From Berkelbacteria bacterium GW2011_GWE1_39_12 (GTDB lineage: Bacteria; Patescibacteriota; UBA1384; UBA12157), in NCBI GenBank assembly GCA_001029735.1, contig CP011213.1:11709-75708 (forward strand): a stretch of DNA of 64,000 nucleotides, in the 5' to 3' direction. The notes beneath the pieces were generated by a model. That model ran no database searches and was not told the DNA's origin. It saw only the letters and a program-made list of their open reading frames with translations. This document shows, piece by piece, positions 1,901 through 52,823 of the stretch (position 1 is its first letter; each line of letters begins with the position of its first letter). Position numbers and translations under genes: made by a program.

Positions 1901-4900
1901 ATGCTTTCTAAAAAATTTATAACTGAATATCAAAAACTGAATCCAAAGCAAAGAGAAGCCGTCGATACGATCGAAGGGCCGGTCATGATTATTGCCGGGC
2001 CGGGGACAGGTAAGACGCAAATCTTAGCGATGAGAATTGCGAATATTTTAGCGAACGCACAAGTTAATCCTTCAAATATTTTGGCGCTAACATTTACCAA
2101 CTCAGGCGCTTACGCTATGAGGAAAAGATTATTGGAAATTGTGGGGCCAAGTAGCTACGCCATTTCTATTCATACGTTTCACTCTTTTTGCAATGAAATT
2201 ATTAATACTTTTCCGGAAAAATTTTTAACAGCCAGACGCTTAAATCAACTGACCGATTTAGAACAAATTCTATATATTCAAAGCATTTTAGATAAAAACA
2301 ATTTCAAAACTATTAAACCTTTAAAAAGTCCTTATTTATATCAAAAGGCAATTTTGGATTCGATTAATAAATTAAAACAAGAAAATATCGATCCAAAAAA
2401 ATTTGAGGAAAAAATCGAGCAAGAACTAATTGATTTTAAAACTATCGATGATCTCTATCACGATAAAGGCGCATACAAAGGCGAAATGAAAGGCAAATAC
2501 AAAGACGAGCTCAGCTCATTAGAGCGCAATAAAGAACTAGCAAAAGTTTACAAAGATTACCAAAAGATTTTAAGCGATGAAGGTAAATACGATTATGCCG
2601 ACATGATTCTTTTTGTTTTAGGCGCCTTTAAAAAAGAAAAAGATATCTTAAGTTATTATCAAGAAAAGTATCAATATATTTTAGTCGATGAATTTCAAGA
2701 CACTAACACGGCCCAGAACGAAATTGTGCGATCTTTGGGCAGCTTTTATGAAAGCCCGAACATTTTTGCTGTTGGCGACGATGAGCAATCAGTCTTCCGT
2801 TTTCAAGGTGCCTCTTTAGAAAACATTTTATTCTTTTCTAAAACTTATCCAGAAGCTAAAGTGATCATTTTAGAAGATAATTACAGATCAACTCAAGACA
2901 TATTAGATTTATCGCGAGCGCTAATTTCTAATAACCAAAATCAAATTGCCGGGCATTTAAAAGTTAGTAAAAAGTTAAAAAGTAATTTAACTTCAAAAGG
3001 AAAAATATACTTAGCAGAATTTAAAAATGTCGCCACAGAAAACTTTTTTATTGCTTCAGAAATTAAGGATCTAATAGAAAAGGGGACCGATCCGAACGAG
3101 ATTGCGGTTTTATATAAACAACATAGCGACGTTGAAGATTTAACTGAAAACTTAGCGCGTTTGAAAGTGCCATATAAATTGGAAGTCGGTGGAAATATTC
3201 TCGACGATCCGGAAATTCAAAAGATTATTAATTATTTAAAAATTTTAGACATTAAAAAGCCTAACGATTTATTATTTTTTGAAGTATTAAGTTATGACTT
3301 CTTTAATATTCCACCAATCGAGATTTACAAACTATCGAGAAAAGCGAGTAAAGAAAGGGAAAGTATAGTCGATACAATACTGTCGGAAAACAAGCTTTCA
3401 GAACCAATCAAAAAGTTTTTTAGCACCTTACTTGACTTGCAACACTTTGCTCAAAATAACACTTTCGCTAGCACTTTCGAATATTTAATTAACAATACGG
3501 GTTATTTAGATTATCTATTGAAAAAAGAAGATACAGTTCACCATTTAAACCGGTTGCAAATTTTTTATGAAGAAATTAAAAAATTGAATGTCAGACAGAA
3601 AGATTTAAATATTGCTGGGTTTTTGAAATACTTAGACAGCCTTACAGAAAATGAATTAAAAATAAAAGATAGGGAAGTCGAAGCAGATTTTGCCGGCGTA
3701 AATTTAATGACGGCGCATAAATCTAAAGGTTTAGAATTTGAAAATGTTTTCATTTTTAAATTAATCGACAAACACTGGGGTAATAAAACAAAACGGGAAT
3801 TAATTAAATTGCCCGGCAATATTTTATCAATTCAGCAAAACAATGACTTGTCCAGCGAAGCCTTGGCGGAGTTGGAAGAGGAAAGACGATTATTCTATGT
3901 TGCACTAACCAGAGCCAAAAAGAATATTTATCTTTCTTTCGCTGATGATTACGGCGATCAAGAAAGTTCAAAGTTTGCAGTTCCATCACAATTTCTTACT
4001 GAATTACCAAATGAAAAGATATTGAAATTGGAAACAGCTAAGTATGAAAAAGAAAGTGTTAAGAGATTGGCATTGGCGTTTCAAAATGACAAATGGCACC
4101 CTGGCAAAGCACTGAAGGAGTTTATTAAGCAAATCGTTGAAGATTTTTCTCTATCGGCAACTTCGCTTAACTCATATATCAACTGTCCAAAACAATTTTT
4201 CCTAGATCATATTATTCGCGTCCCTAAGGCCAAAGATTTTAGCCAAAGCTATGGGACAGCTGTTCATAAAGCGATGGAAAATCTATTTCTCATTCAAATA
4301 CGCGATGGCAAGTTAGCAACGAAATCAGATTTTGTAAAATTTTATGTTAACGCATTAGACGAGGAAATACTGACACCGGCAGAAATACAAAGAGCCAAAA
4401 ACGATGGTACAGAAATATTAGAAAAGTATTACGATTTCTACAAAGAAGAAATGATTAAAAAAGGACCGCCGATTTCTTGTGAGTACAATTTTTCTTCCCA
4501 TAATGTTCATTTTGATAATATACCGATCACGGGTAAAATTGATAAGATTGAAATGATAAACAGCATTGGTAATACTGTCAGAATTATCGATTACAAAACC
4601 AGCCAACCAAAAACAGTTAATGATCTTTTGGGGCAAACGAAGACTAGTGATAAATCATATTTGTATCAAGCGTTTTTTTATAAACTCTTGGCTGAATACG
4701 ACACATCGTTTAAGTGGAAAATTGCCGAAATAGAATTTGATTTTATTCAACCAGAAAAGGGAAGATTTAAAAAGATTAAAATTCCAATTGAGGAAGAAGA
4801 ATATAAAAAATTTAAAGAGCTGGTTTCCAAATCTTATAGCGAAATCAAAAAATTGAATTTTGATACCAATAAAAAATCGTGTAAAGCCAAACGCGAATGT

Positions 4901-44439: not shown

Positions 44440-45531
44440 TTAAAAAGTTATCTTTCGATGACGGAGGTAAATACTCTGCAATATGCCGATGGCGGCCATG
44501 TTTGTAATCATCGACGAACCTCCCGACGAAACAAAAGGCAGCGGAATACCCGTCACTGGCATAATACCAAGATTCATACCGATATTTACTAGAATTTGAA
44601 AAAGAAAAATTCCGGCAATTCCCCCGGACAAATACATGCCAAAATTATCTTTCGCTATAACTGCTACGTTAATTGTCCTCATAACCAAAAGGATAAGCAA
44701 GATAATTAAAAAAGTCGAACCAATAAAACCAGTTGCTTCTGCCGTGCCAGCGAAAATAAAATCAGTATGCGAAACAGGTAAAAAGTTTAATTGGCTTTGA
44801 GATCCTTTACCTAGGCCAGTACCCCAAAGACCACCAGAGCCAACAGCAATTTTTGCTTGAGAAACATTATAACCTGTTCCATGTGGATCGGCCGAAGGAT
44901 TTATAAAACTTGTGATTCTAAGCTGTTGGTACGGTTTTAAATAATGCCAACCAAGCGGTGAAATTACCACTGCGATAGCTAAGGCAACAATCAAATATAT
45001 TTTTTTTATTGGAGAAAGAAAAAGAACAGTAAGCAGTCCAATAAATATTACGGAGGCTGTTCCTAAATCTGGCTGGCGTAAAATTAATAAGGTAGGCACT
45101 CCAACCAAAGCCAGAATAAAAATTATTTTCCTCAAATCTAGTTCTTGCCAATCAGAAAAAAACTTAGCGAGAACAATTAAGATAATAATCTTAAAAAGTT
45201 CGGAGGGTTGAAGTTGAAAAAATTTCAAATCTATCCAACGCGTGGCACCAAAACTTTTTGAACCGATCAATAAAACTGCGATCAGTAAAATTACACCAAT
45301 TATATAAAGAACCAGCGAAAGACCTTTAAGTGTGCGGTAATCTAAATACGTTAAAAAGACCGTGGCTGCGATCCCGATTAAAAAAAACTCAATTTGATTA
45401 AGAGCAAGTGTAGAGTTAGTGCCATAACTAATTGAAAAAATGACAGCCGTGCCCAAACCGGTCAATAATAATGGTAATAAAAACAAAGACCAATCTAAAC
45501 CCAGTGTAAATTTGAGACGCGATAGTTTCAC
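44440..45531 (-). CDS. ftsW: SEDS-family peptidoglycan polymerase (FtsW/RodA)
   Basis: 10 TM helices; conserved SEDS loop ...PVSHTDFIFA... Confidence 0.85.
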   Translation of the reverse strand: MKLSRLKFTLGLDWSLFLLPLLLTGLGTAVIFSISYGTNSTLALNQIEFFLIGIAATVFLTYLDYRTLKGLSLVLYIIGVILLIAVLLIGSKSFGATRWIDLKFFQLQPSELFKIIILIVLAKFFSDWQELDLRKIIFILALVGVPTLLILRQPDLGTASVIFIGLLTVLFLSPIKKIYLIVALAIAVVISPLGWHYLKPYQQLRITSFINPSADPHGTGYNVSQAKIAVGSGGLWGTGLGKGSQSQLNFLPVSHTDFIFAGTAEATGFIGSTFLIILLILLVMRTINVAVIAKDNFGMYLSGGIAGIFLFQILVNIGMNLGIMPVTGIPLPFVSSGGSSMITNMAAIGILQSIYLRHRKITF

Positions 45532-48500
45532 TTTTTAACCCCGATCCAAAGATCATCATTATTCAACTTAATATCAATGCTTTGGTCGACTTCTCGACGT
45601 TCAAATTTAATATCAGTTAATTTGGTTTCGTTTTTAATTTCATCCTTAAATTTTTTAATTAAATCAATAATTCCCAAATTACCATCAGCAAATAATTCGA
45701 CTAAATCATCAGGACTATAGCCAGATTTTTTTCTTAAATCTTGAATTGCACGAACAATATCATTTTTCATACCTTCGTCCTGCAATTCTGGTGTGATTTC
45801 TTGATCGATTTCTATTTCTTTGTATCCTGTAAATACTACTTCTTTTACATTTACTTCATCCTCAATTATTTTTTCAAATTCTTCGTCTAATTTTTTACCG
45901 CCGTATTTTAGATATCCAAGCGGCTGTCTAACTTTATATTTCGGTCCAAGCGCCGCACGAGCAGCTAAACCTTGTTCGATAATTACGCGAGTCTCTGACA
46001 TTTTTTCATTTATGCCTTTATTAATTATATCTTCATTAGCCACTGGAAAATTTTCTAAATGAACCGATTCCCTACTGGTCAAATTCTTAAAAATTTCTTC
46101 GGTAGTAAACGGCATAAAGGGTGCCAGTGTTTTTGACAGTTCAACTAAAACAGTATGCAAAGTTTGATATGCGTTGTTTTTATCCTCAGCATTCCCCTGT
46201 TTTTGAAAACGCTTACGTGATCGGCGGATATACCAATTTGAAAGGTTATCAACGAACGGAACAAATAAGCGCGCGGCTTTTGTTAATTCATATTTTTCCA
46301 TATTGGCATTGACATCTTTAATTAACTGGTTTAGTTCCGACAAAATCCACTTATCCAATATGTTTTCAGATTTTGCGGACAATTCAGAATTTTCTTTTGC
46401 TTTAAAATTATCGATATTGGCATAAAGAGTGAAAAACGAATAAGAATTCCAAAGCATTCTAAAGAAGCCTTTGCTAAATTGATCCAAATCTTTTTCTGAA
46501 AAATTTAAATTCTCCGCTTGTAAGATTTGCGATGAAAGTAAATACATGCGCAAAACATCAGCGCCGTATCTATCGAGTACTTCAACAGGATCCGGATAGT
46601 TTTTCAAACGCTTACTCATTTTTTTGCCGTCTTCAGCCAAAACGATTCCGCTTACAATAACGTTTTTATACGCAACACTTTTTTTAATAGACGTAGCGAT
46701 CAAATGTAAATAATAAAACCAAGCGCGTGTTTGGTCTTGGGCTTCGGCGATAAAATTTGCTGGAAAATAATTGGCAAATTTTTCTTTATTTTCAAACGGG
46801 TAATGGATTTGCGCGTAAGGCATTGAACCGCTATCAAACCAAGTGTCTAAAACATCTGGCACACGATGTGCTTCTTTACCGCATTTATCGCAATTAATTG
46901 TGAAATTATCAATTTTATCTTTATGTAAATCAACTATTTGAGCATTCTCATCAACATAGAATGTCTGAACTCCGTTATGATCAAAATCTTCACGATCGAA
47001 GTATTCATCCAGCTTACAATCGTTTAAAATTTTATTCATGGAAGCATTTGTACCGCCATGGCCAACAATTAGAATATTTTTACCGGCGTATTTTTTAGCA
47101 ATTTCTTTCAGAAAATTTTCAATTCGATCAACTACTTCTTGACGATTTTCTCCAGTAGTTCCAAATTTACAGTTAAATCTTTCTTCCAAGGTCTTTAAAG
47201 CTTTATAACTTTTATAGCTTTCGTCTTCTTTGAGTAATTCTTCTTTTGATGTATCATTCCATGAGCCAAATTGGTTTTCAGTAATGCGGTCGTCGAAAAT
47301 TAATTCAGTCTGTAATTTTTTATTGATAATCTCTGCCGTTTGTTTGGTTCTTAAAACTGGCGAACTAATAATCAGATCAATGTCTTTTAATTTATCAGCG
47401 CCATTTTCTGCTTGGACCTTCCCCTTTTCCGTTAATGGAAATTTATCTAACGAATGTGAACTAATTTTTAAAACATTTTTTTCACTTTCGCCGTGACGAA
47501 CAAAACTTATTTTGGTGATTTTTTGATTTGTCTCTTTTCTTAAATCATCCATTGAGCCAAAAACTTTAATTTCACCACATCCGCCATGCTCGGCGGAACA
47601 TCGCCACAAAGGAATAACCGAAGCCCAATAACGCTGGCGTGAAATTGACCAATCTCTAGCACCTTCCAACCATTTTCCAAATCTGCCTTCTTTAATGTGT
47701 TTTGGCGACCAATTAATTTCTTTGGCTAAATTCAATAAATCAGGCTTTACTTTGATAACGTTAACAAACCAGGATGACGTCGCGTAATTTAACAAAGGAG
47801 TTTCACAACGCCAACAATGCGGATAAGAATGTTCGTATTTTTCTTTAGAAAAGAGCAAATTTCTTGAAGCTAAATTCTTAATAATTTCTACATCTGTTTT
47901 CTGAACATCTTCTGGATGTTTAACATGCATACCAGCAAATTGTTTAACCTCAGGCTTAATAATACCGTCCATACCGATGTGCTGTACAAACGGCAAATTT
48001 TTCTTTTTTCCTAAATTTAAATCGTCTTCTCCAAATGCTGGTGCAATGTGAACAATACCAGTCCCCTCTTCGGTTGTAACAAAAGGAGCATCTACAATCT
48101 TCCAACCGTTGTTACTGTTTTCGATTTCCAAGTCTTTATAATCACGATACAACGGATCATATTTTTGACCGATTAGTTCTTCGCCAGGAAAATCTTCCAA
48201 TTTTTCAAATTCTCTATCTTTAAAAACATCGGCTAATCTGTTTTTAGCTAAAATATATTTTTCCGATTCACCAGTATCTTCGTTTTGTGATTGAACTTTA
48301 ACATACTCAATGTCTTTTCCGACCGCTAATGCTACATTGGCGATTAATGTCCATGGAGTAGTTGTCCAAGCAAGGACGAAGGTCCCCTGTTCATCGATTA
48401 GCTCAAATTTGGCGGTAGCAGATAAATCTTTGATTGTCTTATAACCTTCAGTTACTTCTGATTGAGATAGAGTTGTTTCGCAGCGCGGGCAGATATGCAT

Positions 48501-49037
48501 TGATCTATAGCCTTCATAAACCAAATCTTTATCGTACAGCTCTTTAAAAACCCACCAGACTGATTCCATGTATGAAAAATCCATAGTACGATAAGCGTTT
48601 TTCATATCAACCCAGCGGCCTAGTTTTGGAATAATTTTTTCCCATTCATCTACATAGCCCAAAACTTTATCACGGCAAATATTATTGAATTTATCAATGC
48701 CTAAATCTTCGATTTCTTTTTTATGAGTGATTCCAAGTTCTTGCTCAGCAATATTTTCAATCGGAAGGCCGTGACAATCCCATCCCCAAATACGATCGAC
48801 TTGAAAACCCTTCATTGTGAAAAATCTTGGCACCGCATCTTTGGCAACACTTTGAACTAGATGCCCATAATGAGGAGTTCCGGTCGCAAACGGCGGGCCA
48901 TCGTAAAAACTAAATATTGGTGAGCCTTTGCGATTTTCAATAGATTTTTTAAAAGTATCGTTTTCTTGCCAAAAGTTTAAAATCTCGTTTTCGATCTCTG
49001 GCAATTTAACTTGGGAGTCAATTTTTTTATAACTCAT
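45528..49037 (-). CDS. ileS: isoleucine--tRNA ligase, eukaryote/archaeal-like type 2, carrying an inserted histidine-phosphatase (PGAM-like) domain of about 190 aa
   Basis: PFATGTPHYGH (HIGH), KMSKR; CP1 editing motif WTTTPWTL; insertion residues about 508-698 with RHGES, SSPVLRTKQTA, ENQFGSW, LIVGHGGT between the WRCSAEHGGCGEI and DLHKDKIDNFTINCDKCG...VPDVLDTWFDSG segments. Confidence 0.9.
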   Translation of the reverse strand: MSYKKIDSQVKLPEIENEILNFWQENDTFKKSIENRKGSPIFSFYDGPPFATGTPHYGHLVQSVAKDAVPRFFTMKGFQVDRIWGWDCHGLPIENIAEQELGITHKKEIEDLGIDKFNNICRDKVLGYVDEWEKIIPKLGRWVDMKNAYRTMDFSYMESVWWVFKELYDKDLVYEGYRSMHICPRCETTLSQSEVTEGYKTIKDLSATAKFELIDEQGTFVLAWTTTPWTLIANVALAVGKDIEYVKVQSQNEDTGESEKYILAKNRLADVFKDREFEKLEDFPGEELIGQKYDPLYRDYKDLEIENSNNGWKIVDAPFVTTEEGTGIVHIAPAFGEDDLNLGKKKNLPFVQHIGMDGIIKPEVKQFAGMHVKHPEDVQKTDVEIIKNLASRNLLFSKEKYEHSYPHCWRCETPLLNYATSSWFVNVIKVKPDLLNLAKEINWSPKHIKEGRFGKWLEGARDWSISRQRYWASVIPLWRCSAEHGGCGEIKVFGSMDDLRKETNQKITKISFVRHGESEKNVLKISSHSLDKFPLTEKGKVQAENGADKLKDIDLIISSPVLRTKQTAEIINKKLQTELIFDDRITENQFGSWNDTSKEELLKEDESYKSYKALKTLEERFNCKFGTTGENRQEVVDRIENFLKEIAKKYAGKNILIVGHGGTNASMNKILNDCKLDEYFDREDFDHNGVQTFYVDENAQIVDLHKDKIDNFTINCDKCGKEAHRVPDVLDTWFDSGSMPYAQIHYPFENKEKFANYFPANFIAEAQDQTRAWFYYLHLIATSIKKSVAYKNVIVSGIVLAEDGKKMSKRLKNYPDPVEVLDRYGADVLRMYLLSSQILQAENLNFSEKDLDQFSKGFFRMLWNSYSFFTLYANIDNFKAKENSELSAKSENILDKWILSELNQLIKDVNANMEKYELTKAARLFVPFVDNLSNWYIRRSRKRFQKQGNAEDKNNAYQTLHTVLVELSKTLAPFMPFTTEEIFKNLTSRESVHLENFPVANEDIINKGINEKMSETRVIIEQGLAARAALGPKYKVRQPLGYLKYGGKKLDEEFEKIIEDEVNVKEVVFTGYKEIEIDQEITPELQDEGMKNDIVRAIQDLRKKSGYSPDDLVELFADGNLGIIDLIKKFKDEIKNETKLTDIKFERREVDQSIDIKLNNDDLWIGVKK

Positions 49038-49447
49038 GCATTCCCTTTCATCATGGCTTCATCGATCGCTTCATTAACCAATTTGTCGGCAACTTTATTT
49101 TGTTCGCGTGGCACATGTTGGAAAAATACTTTACCACCCAATCTCAAGATTAAATCTCTAATTTCCCAAAATAAAGGCTTCAAGCCTTCATTTTTTAGTT
49201 TGTAATTACCGTTCAGCTGTTCAACAACTAGTTGGGAGTCGAGATAAAATTGAATTTCTAATTCTTCAGCAAAGTTATTGACAATATATTTTAAGGCTTC
49301 CAATACGGCAGTATATTCAGCTTGGTTATTTGTGGCAACACCAATATATTTTCCGATTTTAGTTTCTGGCAAAATCAAAAAACCGATTCCTGCGTGACCA
49401 GGATTGCCACGTGATCCGCCGTCGGTAAAAACTGTAAGCTGTTGCAT
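49034..49447 (-). CDS. rnhA: ribonuclease HI
   Basis: TDGGSRGNPGHAGIG N-terminal motif; DEDD catalytic pattern. Confidence 0.85.
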   Translation of the reverse strand: MQQLTVFTDGGSRGNPGHAGIGFLILPETKIGKYIGVATNNQAEYTAVLEALKYIVNNFAEELEIQFYLDSQLVVEQLNGNYKLKNEGLKPLFWEIRDLILRLGGKVFFQHVPREQNKVADKLVNEAIDEAMMKGNA

Positions 49448-49544: not shown

Positions 49545-52500
49545 TTACTTTAAATTTTCTAAAATAGAGTAATAATCCACTGATTTCTGTATGCCTCGTT
49601 CATTCCAATTCACATTGACGTCGACTCTAACTGAAGAAGGGTTTCCAGCCGGGGCAACGATAATCGGTATAGTAGTAACATGGGGTGTAGCTGTCCCCTG
49701 TTCAATAATAAGTCTTGCAGTATACATATTGGCTGAGACATAAACAGTTGCCGGATTAGCAGGTGTAGAGATAGAGGTGACTGTGAAAGATTGGGCATTT
49801 GCCTTATATCCAGCATCGTTAACATCTAAATCGGTAAGCGGACCGCAGAAGTGACTAACATTACTAACACTGTTTTTTGCTCCACTAGTTATTGCAGAAT
49901 CCGGGCAATTCCACCAGAAAGAATAACTAATAGATCCAGTGGCTGTACTAGCAGAATCACGATTGGCAGTTAAAATAGTGGATAACGGCATAAAACCGGT
50001 TGAAGGAATTGCCGATAATGTAGCCGAAAGTGTTGTTGCCGATGCGGTATAATTAACACTCGTTGATGCCGTGCTGCTTTTTGTTCCTCTCTCAATATAT
50101 ACTCTAGGATTATAAGTTCCAGCATTATAAGTCGCAGTGTGCGATGCTGAAGAGTTTGAAGTGTTAATATTAGCCGCAAATGGCAATTGCCCACCACATT
50201 TCATCACCCCTGAAACATACCCCGGCGCCACACTGCAATCCATCCAAAAATAATAATTATATGTCTCACTGGTGAAGCCGGTTGAGGTTGGCGTTGCGGT
50301 TATATTCACATTCATTGGCGCAGGACCGGTTGAAGGCGCCGCTGTAATACCGACGGTCAAGGTTTGTGGTGGAGTAACGTACAAGATGACCTGTGCGCTT
50401 GTAAATTTTTCCCAGTTGTAATTGCAGAAAAGGGTAAAAGTATGAGCCTGTGTAATATTAGAAATTGTCGATGAACCGCTACTTGCCGGCGATGAGGTAT
50501 TCCAATTCCAATTACTTTCAGTAGGACTACCTGCGGTGTAACAAGTAGTGGCATTGCTTTGCGACCAATTTAATATCACCGACCCACCATAAGGAATTGT
50601 AATGGCAGGAGCATTTCCTGCGTCATCGGTGTTGGTTTTTTGGTTACTTGGATTACTGCTATCTATTTCCATCAAACTAACCGACGGAGTCACAGAAGCA
50701 CCAACATTAACATTCACGTTAGCATTGGCATTTCCCCCTGGACCCGTACAAGACATACTGTAAGAACGACTCGAAGTAAGATTCCCAGTTGACTCGCCGG
50801 TAGTATTGGAAGTTGCACGGCTGCCCGTCCATGAACCAGAAACAGTACAAGCGGTAGCATTGGATGTGGTCCATGTAAGATTCGCAGCCGTGTTGTACGA
50901 AATTGTTGTTGAACCAGAATGATTATTTGCTCTCAAATCAATTGTCGGGCCAGGTGCTGAACTGACAGTAACCGCAGGAGCCTGAACCGTTGCTCCTGTA
51001 TTTGAGTTATAAATGAATACAAAAGGATGCTTTGTCCCAGCTGTACTATATGTATAAGGAGCAAGATTATTAGTCGTCATATTCCAATAATTAATACCAT
51101 CACCGTTGTAAATGTGATATTCTGGCTGTTTATTACAAAAATTTGCACTACTGTACCAATCCTTTAATGTGCTCGCAGTATAATTGGCAAGTGACAGGTT
51201 TGTAGTCGTTGGTCCATTAGAACAATCTTCCCAATAATAATAGTTAAACCAATCGCCGTAAGAAGATGTAACGCTATCCAGATTGCCGGCAGAGGCAGTC
51301 AAATAAACATTTTGGCCGACTGAATAGCTTGATAAATCGCTGTGCAGATTGGCCGACATAGTAAATGGTGGTGGCGGTGAACCCACGTTCACATTTACAG
51401 TAGCAGTAGGACTGCTGCCACTAGAATTAGTACAATAAAGGCTATAAGATTTAGAGCTGGTCAAAGCACCTGTCGATTGAGAGCCAGAAACACTTTTAGC
51501 GCCCGACCAGCTGCCTGAAGCCGTGCAAGAGGTAGGATTATTTGTTGATGACCAAGCAAGGGTTGCAGCGGTATTGTATGGAATAGTAATTGTTCCAGTA
51601 TTACCATTTGCGGTTAAATTGACCGTTGGTGTCAAGATAGCGTCTACAGTTACTGTTGCGGAGGCATAATCAGCCAAGCCTCCCCTTTCCACTACGTAAA
51701 CTGGCGTATATGTTCCTGCACTTGTGTAAATATGATCCACAGCCCAACCCGTACTGGTTTGATTATCTTTTTTAAAACCTGTCACGGTAGTACTGTCGTT
51801 TGTCAAAGTACCACAGACTTTACTAACCGAAGTATAATCTTTAGCGGTAGCAGTAGCATAATTCGGACAATTCCACCAAAAACTAAAGTTGTAATTGCCT
51901 GTTTGATTTTGGCTAACACTTGATCCGGTAAGTTTTGTTGAAGTAGCAGTATTAACTGCAGAAGGTACAGCGGTTAATGCTGCGCTAAGTGATGGCACCG
52001 GCGTCGCTACTGCGGTGTTTAAAAAACCACTCGCTCCTGAAAAGTTGGCGCTGTAAGTAAAATCCTGTACTTTACCGCCCGTACATCGGTCGACGCTTCC
52101 GATCAATGTATTATGATAAAGCATTTCAGAATAAAGGGCGGCCGGCGTACTTGCAAAGGAAATGTTTGCGGAGATAGTACCCGTATTTGTTACCGTGTAG
52201 ACATGGGGACTTACATATGTAAGATTAACAAGTGAACTTTCACTGAAGTTCGTTGGAGAATTGACCGCAAAGTTTGTATACAAGGTACGCTCTAAACCAA
52301 TTGTATCAAAGCTCCCGGTTTCTGCCGTTGGGACCGAGCAACCTTGATCATTGCTTCCCCAATATCCGGATCGGCTATACTGACCCAGCACGCCAATAGT
52401 ATTAATGAGTGAACTATTATAATTGTAAGCTGCAGCATACCCGAAATGGTTTGAATCCGGATATAACGCAAACCCAGGATTAGAGCCTTGTAATGATTTA

Positions 52501-52823
52501 AAAACAATAGTGTCGCCTTTATAAATAGTGTTTCCACTTGCATCTTTTCCCGTATTGCCTGTAATCGAGATATCAGTACCATTAACACGATGATAGGCGC
52601 CAAAACCAAAAGTAAAACTCCCCTTAAAATCAAAAACGTTTGTCATATTTGTGCTGTCATAATAAGCCGTATCAGGCGATGTCCAGGTGGTCGATTTGTA
52701 ATATGGGTCAGCGTGAGCTTTGCCGAAACTTAAGAAAAATAATAAAGAAAAAGAAATCAAAATAAAAGTGCTTTTTCCAAAGAACATAAGTAATTTCATA
52801 GCTTTTGATTGGGATTGTATCAT
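49545..52823 (-). CDS. giant Ser/Thr/Asn-rich secreted surface protein (1092 aa) with Ig-like and FWWNC-type repeat domains and a conserved C-terminal module
   Basis: Signal peptide; repeated TIPYNTAA.LAWSS.N...C and YSFWWNCP domains; C-terminus VAPAGNPSSVRVDVNVNWNERGIQKSVDYYSILENLK shared with 53586-55784. Confidence 0.7.
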   Translation of the reverse strand: MIQSQSKAMKLLMFFGKSTFILISFSLLFFLSFGKAHADPYYKSTTWTSPDTAYYDSTNMTNVFDFKGSFTFGFGAYHRVNGTDISITGNTGKDASGNTIYKGDTIVFKSLQGSNPGFALYPDSNHFGYAAAYNYNSSLINTIGVLGQYSRSGYWGSNDQGCSVPTAETGSFDTIGLERTLYTNFAVNSPTNFSESSLVNLTYVSPHVYTVTNTGTISANISFASTPAALYSEMLYHNTLIGSVDRCTGGKVQDFTYSANFSGASGFLNTAVATPVPSLSAALTAVPSAVNTATSTKLTGSSVSQNQTGNYNFSFWWNCPNYATATAKDYTSVSKVCGTLTNDSTTVTGFKKDNQTSTGWAVDHIYTSAGTYTPVYVVERGGLADYASATVTVDAILTPTVNLTANGNTGTITIPYNTAATLAWSSTNNPTSCTASGSWSGAKSVSGSQSTGALTSSKSYSLYCTNSSGSSPTATVNVNVGSPPPPFTMSANLHSDLSSYSVGQNVYLTASAGNLDSVTSSYGDWFNYYYWEDCSNGPTTTNLSLANYTASTLKDWYSSANFCNKQPEYHIYNGDGINYWNMTTNNLAPYTYSTAGTKHPFVFIYNSNTGATVQAPAVTVSSAPGPTIDLRANNHSGSTTISYNTAANLTWTTSNATACTVSGSWTGSRATSNTTGESTGNLTSSRSYSMSCTGPGGNANANVNVNVGASVTPSVSLMEIDSSNPSNQKTNTDDAGNAPAITIPYGGSVILNWSQSNATTCYTAGSPTESNWNWNTSSPASSGSSTISNITQAHTFTLFCNYNWEKFTSAQVILYVTPPQTLTVGITAAPSTGPAPMNVNITATPTSTGFTSETYNYYFWMDCSVAPGYVSGVMKCGGQLPFAANINTSNSSASHTATYNAGTYNPRVYIERGTKSSTASTSVNYTASATTLSATLSAIPSTGFMPLSTILTANRDSASTATGSISYSFWWNCPDSAITSGAKNSVSNVSHFCGPLTDLDVNDAGYKANAQSFTVTSISTPANPATVYVSANMYTARLIIEQGTATPHVTTIPIIVAPAGNPSSVRVDVNVNWNERGIQKSVDYYSILENLK

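What the first reader, a model, noticed from the sequence alone, without database searches (positions are those of the whole stretch)
46938..47516. Isoleucyl-tRNA synthetase with a complete histidine-phosphatase (PGAM-like) domain inserted into its catalytic core
ileS (45528-49037, minus strand) is a type-2 IleRS with a PFATGTPHYGH motif. Between the conserved WRCSAEHGGCGEI and DLHKDKIDNFTINCDKCG...VPDVLDTWFDSG segments, which normally lie about 60 aa apart, sits an insertion of about 190 aa. The insertion carries every histidine-phosphatase signature: RHGES (catalytic Arg-His-Gly), SSPVLRTKQTA, ENQFGSW and LIVGHGGT (second His). It is in frame and has no intein hallmarks. This looks like a domain fusion that brings a phosphatase (or phosphomutase-like) activity into an essential aaRS. 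I am not aware of this architecture being described. It could relate to editing, nucleotide or Ap4A-type metabolism, or a moonlighting function.
Basis: partly seen in the sequence, partly recalled or inferred. Interest (0 to 1): 0.8.

Follow-up and report, generated by a model that had tools for sequence, protein, structure and literature searches.

The report
IleRS with built-in histidine phosphatase
An essential protein-synthesis enzyme (isoleucyl-tRNA synthetase) of a tiny groundwater bacterium carries a complete, apparently active phosphatase enzyme spliced into its catalytic core, and this turns out to be a widespread but seemingly undescribed design in the Candidate Phyla Radiation whose purpose is still unknown.

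The parts
45528..49037 (-). ileS: complete 1169-aa ORF encoding type-2 isoleucyl-tRNA synthetase with an embedded histidine phosphatase domain
   Evidence: TIGR00392 889 bits, cut-off 621; AF2 pLDDT 87.2, pTM 0.79; Foldseek 8C8V, target-normalised TM 0.84
47514..49037 (-). IleRS N-terminal part (residues 1-508): first half of the Rossmann fold, the CP1 editing domain, and the first half of the second zinc knuckle
   Evidence: tRNA-synt_1 19-526; motifs HYGH 56-59, WTTTPWT 224, GTGIVHIAP 325, CPRC 183 and CWRC 408; coordinates checked
48861..48872 (-). HIGH-type signature (HYGH, residues 56-59) of the synthetic site
47577..47600 (-). First cysteine pair of zinc knuckle 2 (C480-x6-C487), just upstream of the insert
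   Evidence: C480 and C487 are conserved in at least 90% of 73 aligned sequences.
46932..47513 (-). Inserted histidine phosphatase (His_Phos_1, branch 1) domain, residues K509-V702
47490..47498 (-). RHG motif (R514, H515 nucleophile, G516)
47349..47351 (-). R563 (second phosphate-binding Arg, in SSPVLRT)
47277..47279 (-). E587 (putative proton donor Glu)
47058..47060 (-). H660 (second catalytic His, in VGHGG)
46881..46892 (-). Second cysteine pair of zinc knuckle 2 (C716-x2-C719), just downstream of the insert
45528..46931 (-). IleRS C-terminal part (residues 703-1169 plus stop): second half of the Rossmann fold (WFDSG 733, DQTRAWF 768, KMSKR 806), anticodon-binding domain and DUF5915 type-2 C-terminal domain
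49034..49447 (-). Context: upstream RNase H-like gene whose stop overlaps the ileS start (ATGA). Not linked to the insert.
   Evidence: The same RNase H-ileS-ftsW synteny occurs in the insert-free relative L008.
44440..45531 (-). Context: downstream FtsW/RodA-family gene whose GTG start overlaps the ileS stop

Best explanation
SHOWN. This is the resident type-2 isoleucyl-tRNA synthetase gene of a Berkelbacteria (Candidate Phyla Radiation) genome. A complete histidine phosphatase domain of about 194 aa (branch 1, PspA/CobC/PhoE-like) is inserted in frame. It lies in the loop between the two cysteine pairs of the second zinc knuckle of the catalytic domain. The predicted protein is a single chain with an intact IleRS fold and a separately folded phosphatase domain. 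Every canonical catalytic residue of both enzymes is present. This phosphatase lineage is tied to IleRS across the CPR. It occurs embedded at the zinc-knuckle site, embedded at a second site between KMSKS and the anticodon-binding domain, in one to four diverged copies, or as a separate gene immediately upstream of ileS.

INFERRED. The domain is an active phosphomonoesterase of the small-substrate type that works together with IleRS and does not act in central metabolism. My best guess for the substrate class is a ribose- or adenosine-linked phosphate at or near the aminoacylation site. That could be a phosphate blocking the 3' end of tRNA-Ile, or an adenine-nucleotide by-product. When the domain is embedded, IleRS would supply the substrate binding. 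When it is free-standing, the strongly basic clade-B copies would supply their own RNA affinity. The substrate itself is not identified.

Step-wise confidence: architecture real 0.97; phosphatase catalytically active 0.8; functionally coupled to IleRS 0.65; nucleotide or tRNA-end substrate 0.35.
For: Architecture and reality:
- ORF, Pfam and NCBIfam results.
- Host motifs intact.
- Full-length AF2 model pLDDT 87.2, pTM 0.79, with the insert at 90-97. It superposes on IleRS2 8C8V with target-normalised TM 0.84.
- Identical protein on 11 contigs, with four separate runs shown, all in the same context.

Active enzyme:
- R514, H515, G516, N521, R563, E587 and H660 are at least 90% conserved in 45 inserted IleRS, although the inserts average only 37% identity against 66% for the host.
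- The six catalytic residues (R514, H515, N521, R563, E587, H660) are kept in nearly all 25 copies examined from multi-copy and second-site IleRS. The exceptions are one Asn-to-Ala change and two copies whose N-terminal motifs were not covered. Copies within one protein share only 19-34% identity.

Specific link to IleRS:
- 45 of the 120 nearest IleRS carry the insert.
- Of the 150 best 50%-identity cluster representatives of the insert, 45 are IleRS and only one is another long protein.
- In GTDB species representatives, 18 of the 19 best loci are embedded in or adjacent to ileS.
- Two independent insertion sites exist.
- Free-standing members of both insert clades lie directly upstream of ileS: L001-L003 next to an insert-bearing ileS, and L005, L006 and L090 next to an insert-free ileS.

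Nucleotide or RNA leaning (all weak):
- Free-standing clade-B copies average +26 net charge spread over the whole fold, against -2.6 for embedded copies of the same clade.
- In L005 the free copy carries +13.6 per 100 aa, against about +2 for neighbouring enzymes and +10.7 for SmpB.
- Relatives also carry NUDIX or NMP-kinase-like modules in the same IleRS.
- Related His_Phos domains are inserted in a GatA fragment and fused to an AbiEii/MenT-like nucleotidyltransferase.
- Phosphate-type blocking of tRNA CCA ends by toxins is an established phenomenon (10.1101/2021.04.30.441581; PMC11559606).
Against: - No substrate evidence exists. All characterised equivalog models fail their cut-offs: dPGM_arch 97.5 (cut-off 225), CobC 87 (163), PspA 78 (350), SixA 31.5 (74.5).
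- The nearest structural neighbours are metabolic small-molecule phosphatases that align over nearly the whole domain. None of them is known to act on RNA ends (my own knowledge).
- The insert is dispensable for IleRS as such. The query's closest relatives (71-72% identity, same synteny) lack it, and inserted and insert-free IleRS are interleaved in the host tree.
- Clade-A free copies, the query's own clade, are not basic, and two free copies (P0004, P0043) are not near ileS.
- The same region of IleRS also accepts unrelated enzymes (Ser hydrolase, GNAT, P-loop). That fits a merely permissive loop.
- The position of the phosphatase active site relative to the synthetic site and tRNA A76 could not be measured, because model coordinates are not exposed.
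- The kinase-like, NUDIX, GatA and AbiEii observations each rest on a single protein.
Confidence: 0.5

Rival explanations
1. Hitchhiking metabolic phosphatase. The domain is an ordinary small-molecule phosphatase or mutase (PspA, PhoE, CobC or dPGM-like) that landed in a permissive surface loop of a highly expressed essential enzyme. It is kept there, or next to ileS, only for co-expression and stability in a reduced genome, and it has no mechanistic link to aminoacylation.
For: - The nearest solved neighbours are all small-molecule metabolic phosphatases.
- The best NCBIfam hits are dPGM_arch, CobC and PspA.
- Distribution is patchy, and the closest IleRS relatives lack the insert in identical synteny.
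- The same IleRS region also hosts unrelated enzymes: Ser_hydrolase, GNAT and a P-loop module.
- A related domain is also inserted in a GatA loop.
Against: - Host specificity is extreme. 45 of the 150 nearest cluster representatives are IleRS, and no other aaRS appears among the 15 long hits tested by Pfam.
- Insertion occurs at two separate sites, with tandem multiplication to 2-4 diverged, apparently active copies.
- Free-standing copies from both clades sit immediately upstream of ileS in distant lineages.
- The free clade-B copies carry a very high positive charge, which is unusual for a metabolic enzyme.
- Every characterised equivalog cut-off is missed by a wide margin.
Confidence: 0.3
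2. Protein phosphatase or regulatory module. The domain removes phosphoryl groups (pSer, pThr, pTyr or pHis) from IleRS itself or a partner. This would, for example, reverse inactivation by Hip-type kinase toxins that target aaRS, or it could sense a phosphorylated metabolite.
For: - From my own knowledge, the superfamily contains protein phosphatases (SixA, PGAM5, Sts) and HipA/HipT-type toxins phosphorylate aaRS.
- A tethered phosphatase would be ideally placed for self-repair.
- A related His_Phos domain is fused to an AbiEii/MenT-like toxin-family protein.
Against: - The SixA model scores 31.5 against a cut-off of 74.5.
- No kinase is seen in the neighbourhoods examined.
Confidence: 0.08
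3. Non-catalytic structural, dimerisation or tRNA-binding module. The fold is used as a scaffold, for example to bind the tRNA or to dimerise as many His_Phos enzymes do, and catalysis is irrelevant.
For: - Many family members are dimers (my own knowledge).
- Multi-copy variants, and a free copy encoded next to an insert-bearing ileS, would suit hetero-dimerisation.
Against: - The whole catalytic set is conserved in at least 90% of 45 inserts.
- It is also kept in nearly all copies of multi-copy proteins, despite only 19-37% overall identity.
- A pseudo-enzyme would be expected to lose these residues.
Confidence: 0.05
4. Artefact or selfish element: an assembly chimera, a mis-called fusion of two genes, or an intein or other mobile insertion that is removed before the enzyme functions.
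For: - Patchy occurrence at one precise site of a conserved essential gene resembles the pattern of inteins and homing elements.
Against: - The identical protein is on 11 contigs from separate runs and assemblers.
- The reading frame is uninterrupted.
- The junctions KIT|KISF and QIV|DLHK lack the Cys/Ser/Thr +1 nucleophile and the terminal His-Asn, and there is no Hint or endonuclease match.
- GC3 is close to the host's, 0.25 against 0.29.
- The insert is confidently modelled as part of a single chain.
- Homologues are 30-55% diverged, so the insertion is old and vertically maintained within subclades.
Confidence: 0.02

Closest known systems
Type-2 (eukaryote-like, mupirocin-insensitive type) bacterial IleRS, e.g. 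Priestia megaterium IleRS2 (PDB 8C8U/8C8V)
   Same: Same enzyme family and fold: phmmer E=3e-216, Foldseek target-normalised TM 0.84. It has an HxGH signature, KMSK(S/R), CP1 editing motifs, two zinc knuckles, Anticodon_1 and a DUF5915 C-terminal domain.
   Different: The solved enzymes have only a short loop (about 20-50 aa) between the two cysteine pairs of the second zinc knuckle. Here that loop holds a 194-aa phosphatase domain.
Small-substrate branch-1 histidine phosphatases: PspA phosphoserine phosphatase (4IJ5), CobC alpha-ribazole-5'-phosphate phosphatase (6E4B, 6NRU), PhoE (1H2E)
   Different: Only 23-29% identical, and scores are far below each family's curated cut-off. Those enzymes are free-standing. 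This lineage is embedded in, or encoded next to, IleRS.
NCBIfam NF040702 'isoleucine--tRNA ligase, N-acetyltransferase domain-containing' (ileS_w_GNAT)
   Same: A precedent for an IleRS that carries an extra enzymatic domain. One relative here (P0367) has both GNAT and His_Phos.
   Different: The accessory enzyme is different. The query scores 321 bits against a cut-off of 1999, so it is not a member. I found no published study of that family either.
Other bifunctional His_Phos fusions with nucleic-acid or nucleotide enzymes: M. tuberculosis Rv2228c-type RNase H/acid phosphatase (NF005567) and MutT1-type NUDIX plus His_Phos (NF052459; PDB 9CXX, 3FJY)
   Different: Those are end-to-end fusions. 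This is an internal insertion into a catalytic domain. The scores are far below cut-offs. The adjacent RNase H gene in the window is unrelated to the insert.
6-phosphofructo-2-kinase/fructose-2,6-bisphosphatase (P-loop kinase plus His_Phos bifunctional enzyme; PDB 1BIF)
   Different: In P0141 the P-loop module is a separate insertion. Its weak best matches are APS kinase and dephospho-CoA kinase, not 6PF2K. The query itself has no kinase module.

Membership tests
Isoleucyl-tRNA synthetase (TIGR00392 ileS; type 2) | Whole-protein score above the curated equivalog cut-off | tested here: met
   889.3 bits against a cut-off of 621.4, despite the insert
Isoleucyl-tRNA synthetase (TIGR00392 ileS; type 2) | Class I signatures HIGH and KMSKS, and CP1 editing motifs | tested here: met
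   HYGH 56-59, KMSKR 806-810, WTTTPWT 224, GTGIVHIAP 325
Isoleucyl-tRNA synthetase (TIGR00392 ileS; type 2) | Type-2 C-terminal architecture (Anticodon_1 plus DUF5915) and overall fold | tested here: met
   Pfam Anticodon_1 895-1027 and DUF5915 1075-1169. Foldseek target-normalised TM 0.84 to 8C8V and 0.91 to 1ILE.
Isoleucyl-tRNA synthetase (TIGR00392 ileS; type 2) | Isoleucine-specific aminoacylation of tRNA-Ile | not testable with these tools
   Needs biochemistry. The gene occupies the same locus as ileS in the insert-free relative L008, so it is probably the housekeeping copy.
Histidine phosphatase superfamily, branch 1 (Pfam PF00300) | Profile match above the gathering score over the whole domain | tested here: met
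   114.7 bits against 21.7, covering profile positions 2-187 of 194
Histidine phosphatase superfamily, branch 1 (Pfam PF00300) | Catalytic core: RHG nucleophile His, two Arg, proton-donor Glu, second His | tested here: met
   R514, H515, G516, N521, R563, E587 and H660 are present and at least 90% conserved in 45 homologous inserts
Histidine phosphatase superfamily, branch 1 (Pfam PF00300) | Alpha/beta fold of the superfamily | tested here: met
Histidine phosphatase superfamily, branch 1 (Pfam PF00300) | Phosphatase or mutase activity through a phospho-histidine intermediate | not testable with these tools
   Inferred only from conservation of the catalytic residues
Cofactor-dependent phosphoglycerate mutase (NF038349 dPGM_arch; TIGR01258 pgm_1) | Score above the curated cut-off | tested here: not met
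   97.5-101.6 bits against 225, and 30-35 bits against 81.7
Alpha-ribazole phosphatase CobC (TIGR03162) | Score above the curated cut-off | tested here: not met
   87-92 bits against 162.9
Phosphoserine phosphatase PspA (NF045917) | Score above the curated cut-off | tested here: not met
   78-81 bits against 350, although it is the best structural neighbour
Phosphohistidine phosphatase SixA (TIGR00249) | Score above the curated cut-off, and the minimal SixA-type fold | tested here: not met
Intein | Cys/Ser/Thr at the first residue of the insert and of the C-extein, a terminal His-Asn, and a Hint-domain match | tested here: not met
   The insert starts with Lys (KISF) and ends QIV, followed by Asp. 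The only other Pfam family matched by the insert is a weak sub-threshold Bud13 hit, and there is no Hint match.
IleRS with GNAT domain (NF040702) and MupA/MupB mupirocin-resistant IleRS (NF000257/8) | Score above the curated cut-off | tested here: not met
   321 bits against 1999, and 758 and 740 bits against 1900

The most novel reading that the evidence does not exclude
The IleRS-linked phosphatases are a built-in tRNA-end unblocking or repair activity. They would remove phosphate or pyrophosphate groups placed on the 3'-terminal adenosine of tRNA by toxin-type enzymes such as toxSAS pyrophosphokinases, or left there by RNases. The synthetase could then recharge tRNA that would otherwise be dead. 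On this reading, multi-copy variants perform sequential dephosphorylation and the basic free-standing copies do the same job in trans. More broadly, CPR IleRS would be a platform that collects accessory enzymes (His_Phos, NUDIX, kinase-like, Ser hydrolase, GNAT) acting on its adenylate and tRNA chemistry.
Probability: 0.15. Interest if true: 0.85.

Novelty: new variant of a known kind. Interest (0 to 1): 0.68.

Why it matters
Aminoacyl-tRNA synthetases are among the most conserved enzymes known. New catalytic domains inside the catalytic core are rare; CP1 editing is the classic case. Here a second, apparently active enzyme has been grafted repeatedly into IleRS, at two sites and in up to four copies, or kept as an operon partner. 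This occurs across a large part of the Candidate Phyla Radiation, whose reduced genomes are poorly understood. If the phosphatase is coupled to aminoacylation, it would reveal an unrecognised step in tRNA-Ile or adenylate handling, such as repair, unblocking or by-product clearance. If it is a hitchhiker, it is a clear example of how reduced genomes use essential genes as carriers for other enzymes. In both cases the family is large, well defined and directly testable with recombinant protein. It also shows that the second zinc knuckle of IleRS is a natural site that tolerates domain insertion, which is useful for engineering.

Tried and rejected
- Assembly chimera: rejected. The identical protein is on 11 contigs from several runs and sources, always in the same context.
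- Intein or mobile element: rejected from the junction residues and the absence of a Hint match.
- Recent horizontal acquisition: not supported. GC3 is 0.25 against 0.29, and the closest insert homologue is only 55% identical.
- Link to the adjacent RNase H gene (by analogy with Rv2228c RNase H/phosphatase): rejected. The insert-free relative L008 has the same RNase H-ileS-ftsW synteny.
- Single ancient insertion inherited vertically: not supported as the whole story. Host and insert identities correlate only weakly (rho 0.31), inserted and insert-free IleRS are interleaved, free-standing genes nest inside both insert clades, and a second insertion site exists. The NJ trees are poorly resolved, so the number of gains and losses is not established.
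- Assignment to a characterised phosphatase (dPGM, CobC, PspA, SixA, GpmB, PhoE-type acid phosphatase): all below cut-offs.
- Identity of the P-loop module in P0141: only weak matches to APS kinase, dephospho-CoA kinase and CMP kinase (E about 1e-5), so not decisive.
- Second His_Phos gene in the window: none.
- RNA elements: no Rfam family anywhere in the window.
- Literature: the four searches aimed at this architecture or the GNAT precedent found no description. Two searches on aaRS in Patescibacteria/CPR returned no paper whose title or abstract concerns it. PMC6429109 was checked and is irrelevant.
- A GTDB scan with a diverse alignment failed for lack of a conserved stretch. It was repeated with clade A only, so clade-B carriers are under-sampled in the taxonomic survey.
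- Distance and orientation of the phosphatase site relative to the synthetic site, editing site and tRNA A76: not measurable, because coordinates are not exposed.
Full report
**1.

The window holds a 3510-nt ORF on the minus strand (45528-49037, 1169 aa, ATG start) with no internal stop. Pfam finds tRNA-synt_1 split into two stretches, Anticodon_1 (895-1027), DUF5915 (1075-1169) and His_Phos_1. The His_Phos_1 match covers residues 511-701 and profile positions 2-187 of 194 (E=5.7e-33, 114.7 bits, gathering score 21.7). NCBIfam's ileS equivalog TIGR00392 scores 889 bits against a cut-off of 621.

- HYGH at 56-59 and KMSKR at 806-810.
- Editing motifs WTTTPWT (224) and GTGIVHIAP (325).
- Two zinc sites: C183/C186 with C408/C411, and C480/C487 with C716/C719.
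- Phosphatase residues R514-H515-G516, N521, R563, E587 and H660.

I aligned the 120 closest IleRS. In the insert-free ones the anchors W(R/K)C... and VPDV... are 49-63 aa apart (most 49-54). In the query they are 248 aa apart. The junction is sharp. Insert-free proteins read ...SGQKIT|DLHK..., and the query reads ...NQKIT(508)|K509ISFVRHGES...AQIV702|D703LHK.

**2. It is real, in frame and folded**

The identical 1169-aa protein (P0121) is already public as 'isoleucine--tRNA ligase [Candidatus Berkelbacteria bacterium]'. It is found on 11 contigs. The four places shown come from separate runs (SRR3309327, SRR6487450, SRR1658471 groundwater, SAMN03203003) and two sources, always between an RNase H gene and ftsW/rodA. 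An assembly chimera is very unlikely.

The junction residues lack intein hallmarks, and there is no Hint-domain match. The insert's GC3 is 0.25 against 0.29 for the host, so it is not a recent foreign acquisition.

The phmmer alignment to 1ILE puts query residue 504 opposite Thermus residue 481. From my own recollection of that structure, this lies between the Cys461/464 and Cys502/504 zinc ligands. That agrees with the cysteine pairs that flank the insert here.

**3. It is one member of a large family**

- Of the 120 nearest IleRS, 45 carry PF00300 (1027-1329 aa). The other 75 (947-1006 aa) do not.
- An exhaustive phmmer search of the insert against 1.84 billion cluster representatives gave 913 hits at E≤1e-10. 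Of the best 150, 45 are IleRS, 86 are free-standing proteins of 260 aa or less, 18 are proteins of 261-500 aa (mostly double-His_Phos), and one is another long protein.
- All 15 long hits checked with Pfam matched tRNA-synt_1. The ten that include the C-terminal region also have Anticodon_1 and DUF5915.
- A scan of GTDB species representatives, seeded with the query's own insert clade, returned 80 loci. Of the 19 best, 18 are embedded in or adjacent to ileS, and three more embedded cases lie further down. Record titles name Berkelbacteria, Magasanikbacteria, Saccharibacteria, Gracilibacteria, Altimarinota and Paceibacterota. Everything below about 36% identity is a generic phosphatase from unrelated phyla.

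Four literature searches aimed at this architecture or the GNAT precedent found no description of it. Two searches on aaRS in Patescibacteria/CPR returned no paper whose title or abstract concerns it. NCBIfam has a model for IleRS with a GNAT domain but none for this design.

**4. Anatomy of the family**

The inserts fall into two deep clades. Clade A is the query's type, with an N-junction reading QKITKxxFVRHGESEKN. Clade B has junctions such as GNPNKLFLVRHG. Free-standing proteins nest inside both clades.

Inserts are much more diverged than their hosts (mean identity 37% against 66%) and track the host only weakly (Spearman rho 0.31). In a neighbour-joining host tree, inserted and insert-free IleRS are interleaved. 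The query's three nearest relatives (P0125, P0128, P0129; 71-72% identity over host columns) lack the insert. P0128 sits in identical synteny: RNase H, ileS, ftsW/rodA, L21, secE, nusG, L11. The RNase H neighbour is therefore irrelevant, and the insert is not required for IleRS function as such.

The observed arrangements are:
- A single copy at the zinc-knuckle site, which is the majority.
- Tandem pairs at that site.
- One copy there plus one at a second site between the KMSKS region and the anticodon-binding domain (P0247, P0248).
- The second site only (P0343).
- Four copies (P0252).

Copies within one protein share only 19-34% identity, yet nearly all keep R, H, N, R, E and H. The exceptions are one Asn-to-Ala change and two copies whose N-terminal motifs were not covered. 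Across 45 single inserts the same residues are at least 90% conserved. This pattern indicates purifying selection on catalysis.

**5. Gene-neighbourhood link**

- The closest free-standing homologues of the query's insert (P0001 and P0002, 53% identity) lie immediately upstream of a very different IleRS (34% identical to the query). That IleRS carries its own distantly related insert (32% identity) at the same site.
- Free-standing clade-B proteins P0022 and P0024 lie 4 and 14 nt upstream of insert-free ileS genes. The shared order is (ArgRS)-HisPhos-ileS-small ORF-recO.
- Two other free copies (P0004, P0043) are not near ileS.

Fusion, insertion at two sites and operon adjacency in distant lineages together argue for a specific functional association with IleRS.

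**6. Clues to function (all indirect)**

(b) All characterised equivalog models fail their cut-offs, so the substrate cannot be transferred by homology.

(c) Embedded inserts are mildly acidic (median net charge -3.5). The free-standing clade-B copies average +26 net charge, spread over every part of the fold. In L005 the free copy has +13.6 charges per 100 aa. Neighbouring enzymes (ArgRS, IleRS, RecO) have about +2, SmpB has +10.7 and IF3 has +5.7. This fits a free enzyme that must bind a polyanion such as tRNA by itself, whereas an embedded one can rely on IleRS. Clade-A free copies do not show this.

(d) Other accessory enzymes occur in the same IleRS proteins:
- NUDIX inside CP1 (P0174).
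- A P-loop module inserted between the two cysteines of the first CxxC (P0141), weakly similar to APS, dephospho-CoA and CMP kinases.
- A Ser_hydrolase module in a Gracilibacteria IleRS (L024).
- A GNAT domain (P0367).

(e) Related His_Phos domains are inserted in a GatA fragment (P0079) and fused to an AbiEii/MenT-like nucleotidyltransferase (P0058).

(f) Toxins that block tRNA 3' ends by pyrophosphorylation or nucleotide addition are established (10.1101/2021.04.30.441581, PMC11559606, PMC10435456). So phosphate-blocked tRNA ends are a plausible substrate class. No histidine phosphatase is known to me to act on them.

**7. Best explanation and rivals**

Shown: a genuine bifunctional polypeptide, made of an intact type-2 IleRS plus a catalytically complete small-substrate histidine phosphatase in the second zinc knuckle. 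It belongs to a CPR-wide lineage of phosphatases tied to IleRS.

Inferred: the phosphatase is active (0.8), is functionally coupled to IleRS (0.65), and most plausibly acts on a ribose- or adenosine-linked phosphate, either a tRNA-Ile 3' end or an adenine nucleotide (0.35).

Rivals:
- Hitchhiking metabolic phosphatase in a permissive loop (0.3). It is favoured by the metabolic nature of the structural neighbours, the patchy distribution and the variety of domains this region tolerates. It is disfavoured by the host specificity, the two sites, the multiple active copies and the operon linkage.
- Protein phosphatase (0.08).
- Non-catalytic module (0.05).
- Artefact or intein (0.02).

The decisive geometric test could not be run, because model coordinates are not exposed. 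That test is where the phosphatase active site points relative to the synthetic site and tRNA A76.

**8. Novelty and verdict**

Both parts belong to well-known families, and the proteins are already in public databases with automatic domain calls. The architecture, its breadth, the second site, the multi-copy forms and the operon-linked free-standing forms appear undescribed. I rate it a new variant of a known kind, with interest 0.68. An aaRS specialist would be surprised by a second active enzyme recurrently grafted into the IleRS catalytic core, and the question is directly testable. The function remains open.

Noticed in passing
L009 6001-9975 (protein P0141, 1324 aa): IleRS with a ~165-aa P-loop NMP-kinase-like module inserted between the two cysteines of the first CxxC of zinc knuckle 2, plus the His_Phos insert 20 aa downstream. 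The module has weak matches to APS kinase, dephospho-CoA kinase and CMP kinase (E about 1e-5).
   Followed up: partly
Protein P0174 (1306 aa), residues 321-448: IleRS with a NUDIX domain inside the CP1 editing domain in addition to the His_Phos insert (residues 650-812).
   Followed up: partly
L024 about 3200-4560 (record labelled Gracilibacteria; in-frame UGA codons were taken as Gly): IleRS in which the His_Phos insert is followed by a PF06821 Ser_hydrolase module (E=1.7e-7) that replaces the second half of the zinc knuckle.
   Followed up: partly
Proteins P0247, P0248, P0343, P0252, P0367: A second His_Phos insertion site lies between KMSKS and the anticodon-binding domain. Tandem and up to four diverged copies occur, nearly all catalytically intact. 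P0367 (1859 aa) also carries a GNAT domain at 557-669.
   Followed up: partly
Protein P0079 (270 aa, 1.1-kb contig): A GatA (Asp/Glu-tRNA amidotransferase subunit A) fragment with a complete His_Phos domain inserted in a loop. This is a second tRNA-pathway enzyme hosting the fold, seen in a single fragment only.
   Followed up: partly
Protein P0058 (461 aa): An AbiEii/MenT-family nucleotidyltransferase (PF08843) fused to a C-terminal His_Phos domain that is 37% identical to the query insert.
   Followed up: no
L005 6001-6600, L090 1337-1897 (P0022, P0024 and relatives P0021-P0027, P0033): Free-standing clade-B His_Phos proteins are extremely basic (pI about 10-10.4, net +21 to +29 over ~199 aa). 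The two checked (P0022, P0024) sit immediately upstream of an insert-free ileS. Embedded copies of the same clade are slightly acidic.
   Followed up: partly
L001 12534-12935, L005 9396-9710, L090 4772-5101: A small hypothetical gene (104-133 aa; strongly basic in L005, mildly so in L001) is conserved between ileS and recO in the lineages that have the upstream phosphatase gene. It has no Pfam hit on record.
   Followed up: no
L006 5773-8588: ileS is called as two ORFs (725 and 213 aa) where the near-identical locus L005 has one 938-aa ORF. This is probably a frameshift or sequencing error.
   Followed up: no
Protein P0073 (384 aa): An odd fragment: a signal-peptide-like N-terminus, then the C-terminal part of a His_Phos domain, then a C-terminal piece of the IleRS catalytic domain, then the start of another His_Phos. 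It is either a second-site carrier cut by contig ends or a gene-calling artefact.
   Followed up: no
window 49545-52823 (-): A 1092-aa Ser/Thr/Asn-rich ORF with an N-terminal hydrophobic segment lies upstream of RNase H-ileS. It has no Pfam hit on record, and its GC is 0.42-0.46 against about 0.35 for its neighbours.
   Followed up: no
window 1-64000: No Rfam family reaches its gathering score anywhere in the 64-kb window, so no tRNA, rRNA, riboswitch or leader was detected.
   Followed up: no
window 49034-49037 and 45528-45531: The RNase H stop overlaps the ileS start (ATGA), and the ileS stop overlaps the GTG start of ftsW/rodA. This suggests a translationally coupled operon.
   Followed up: partly
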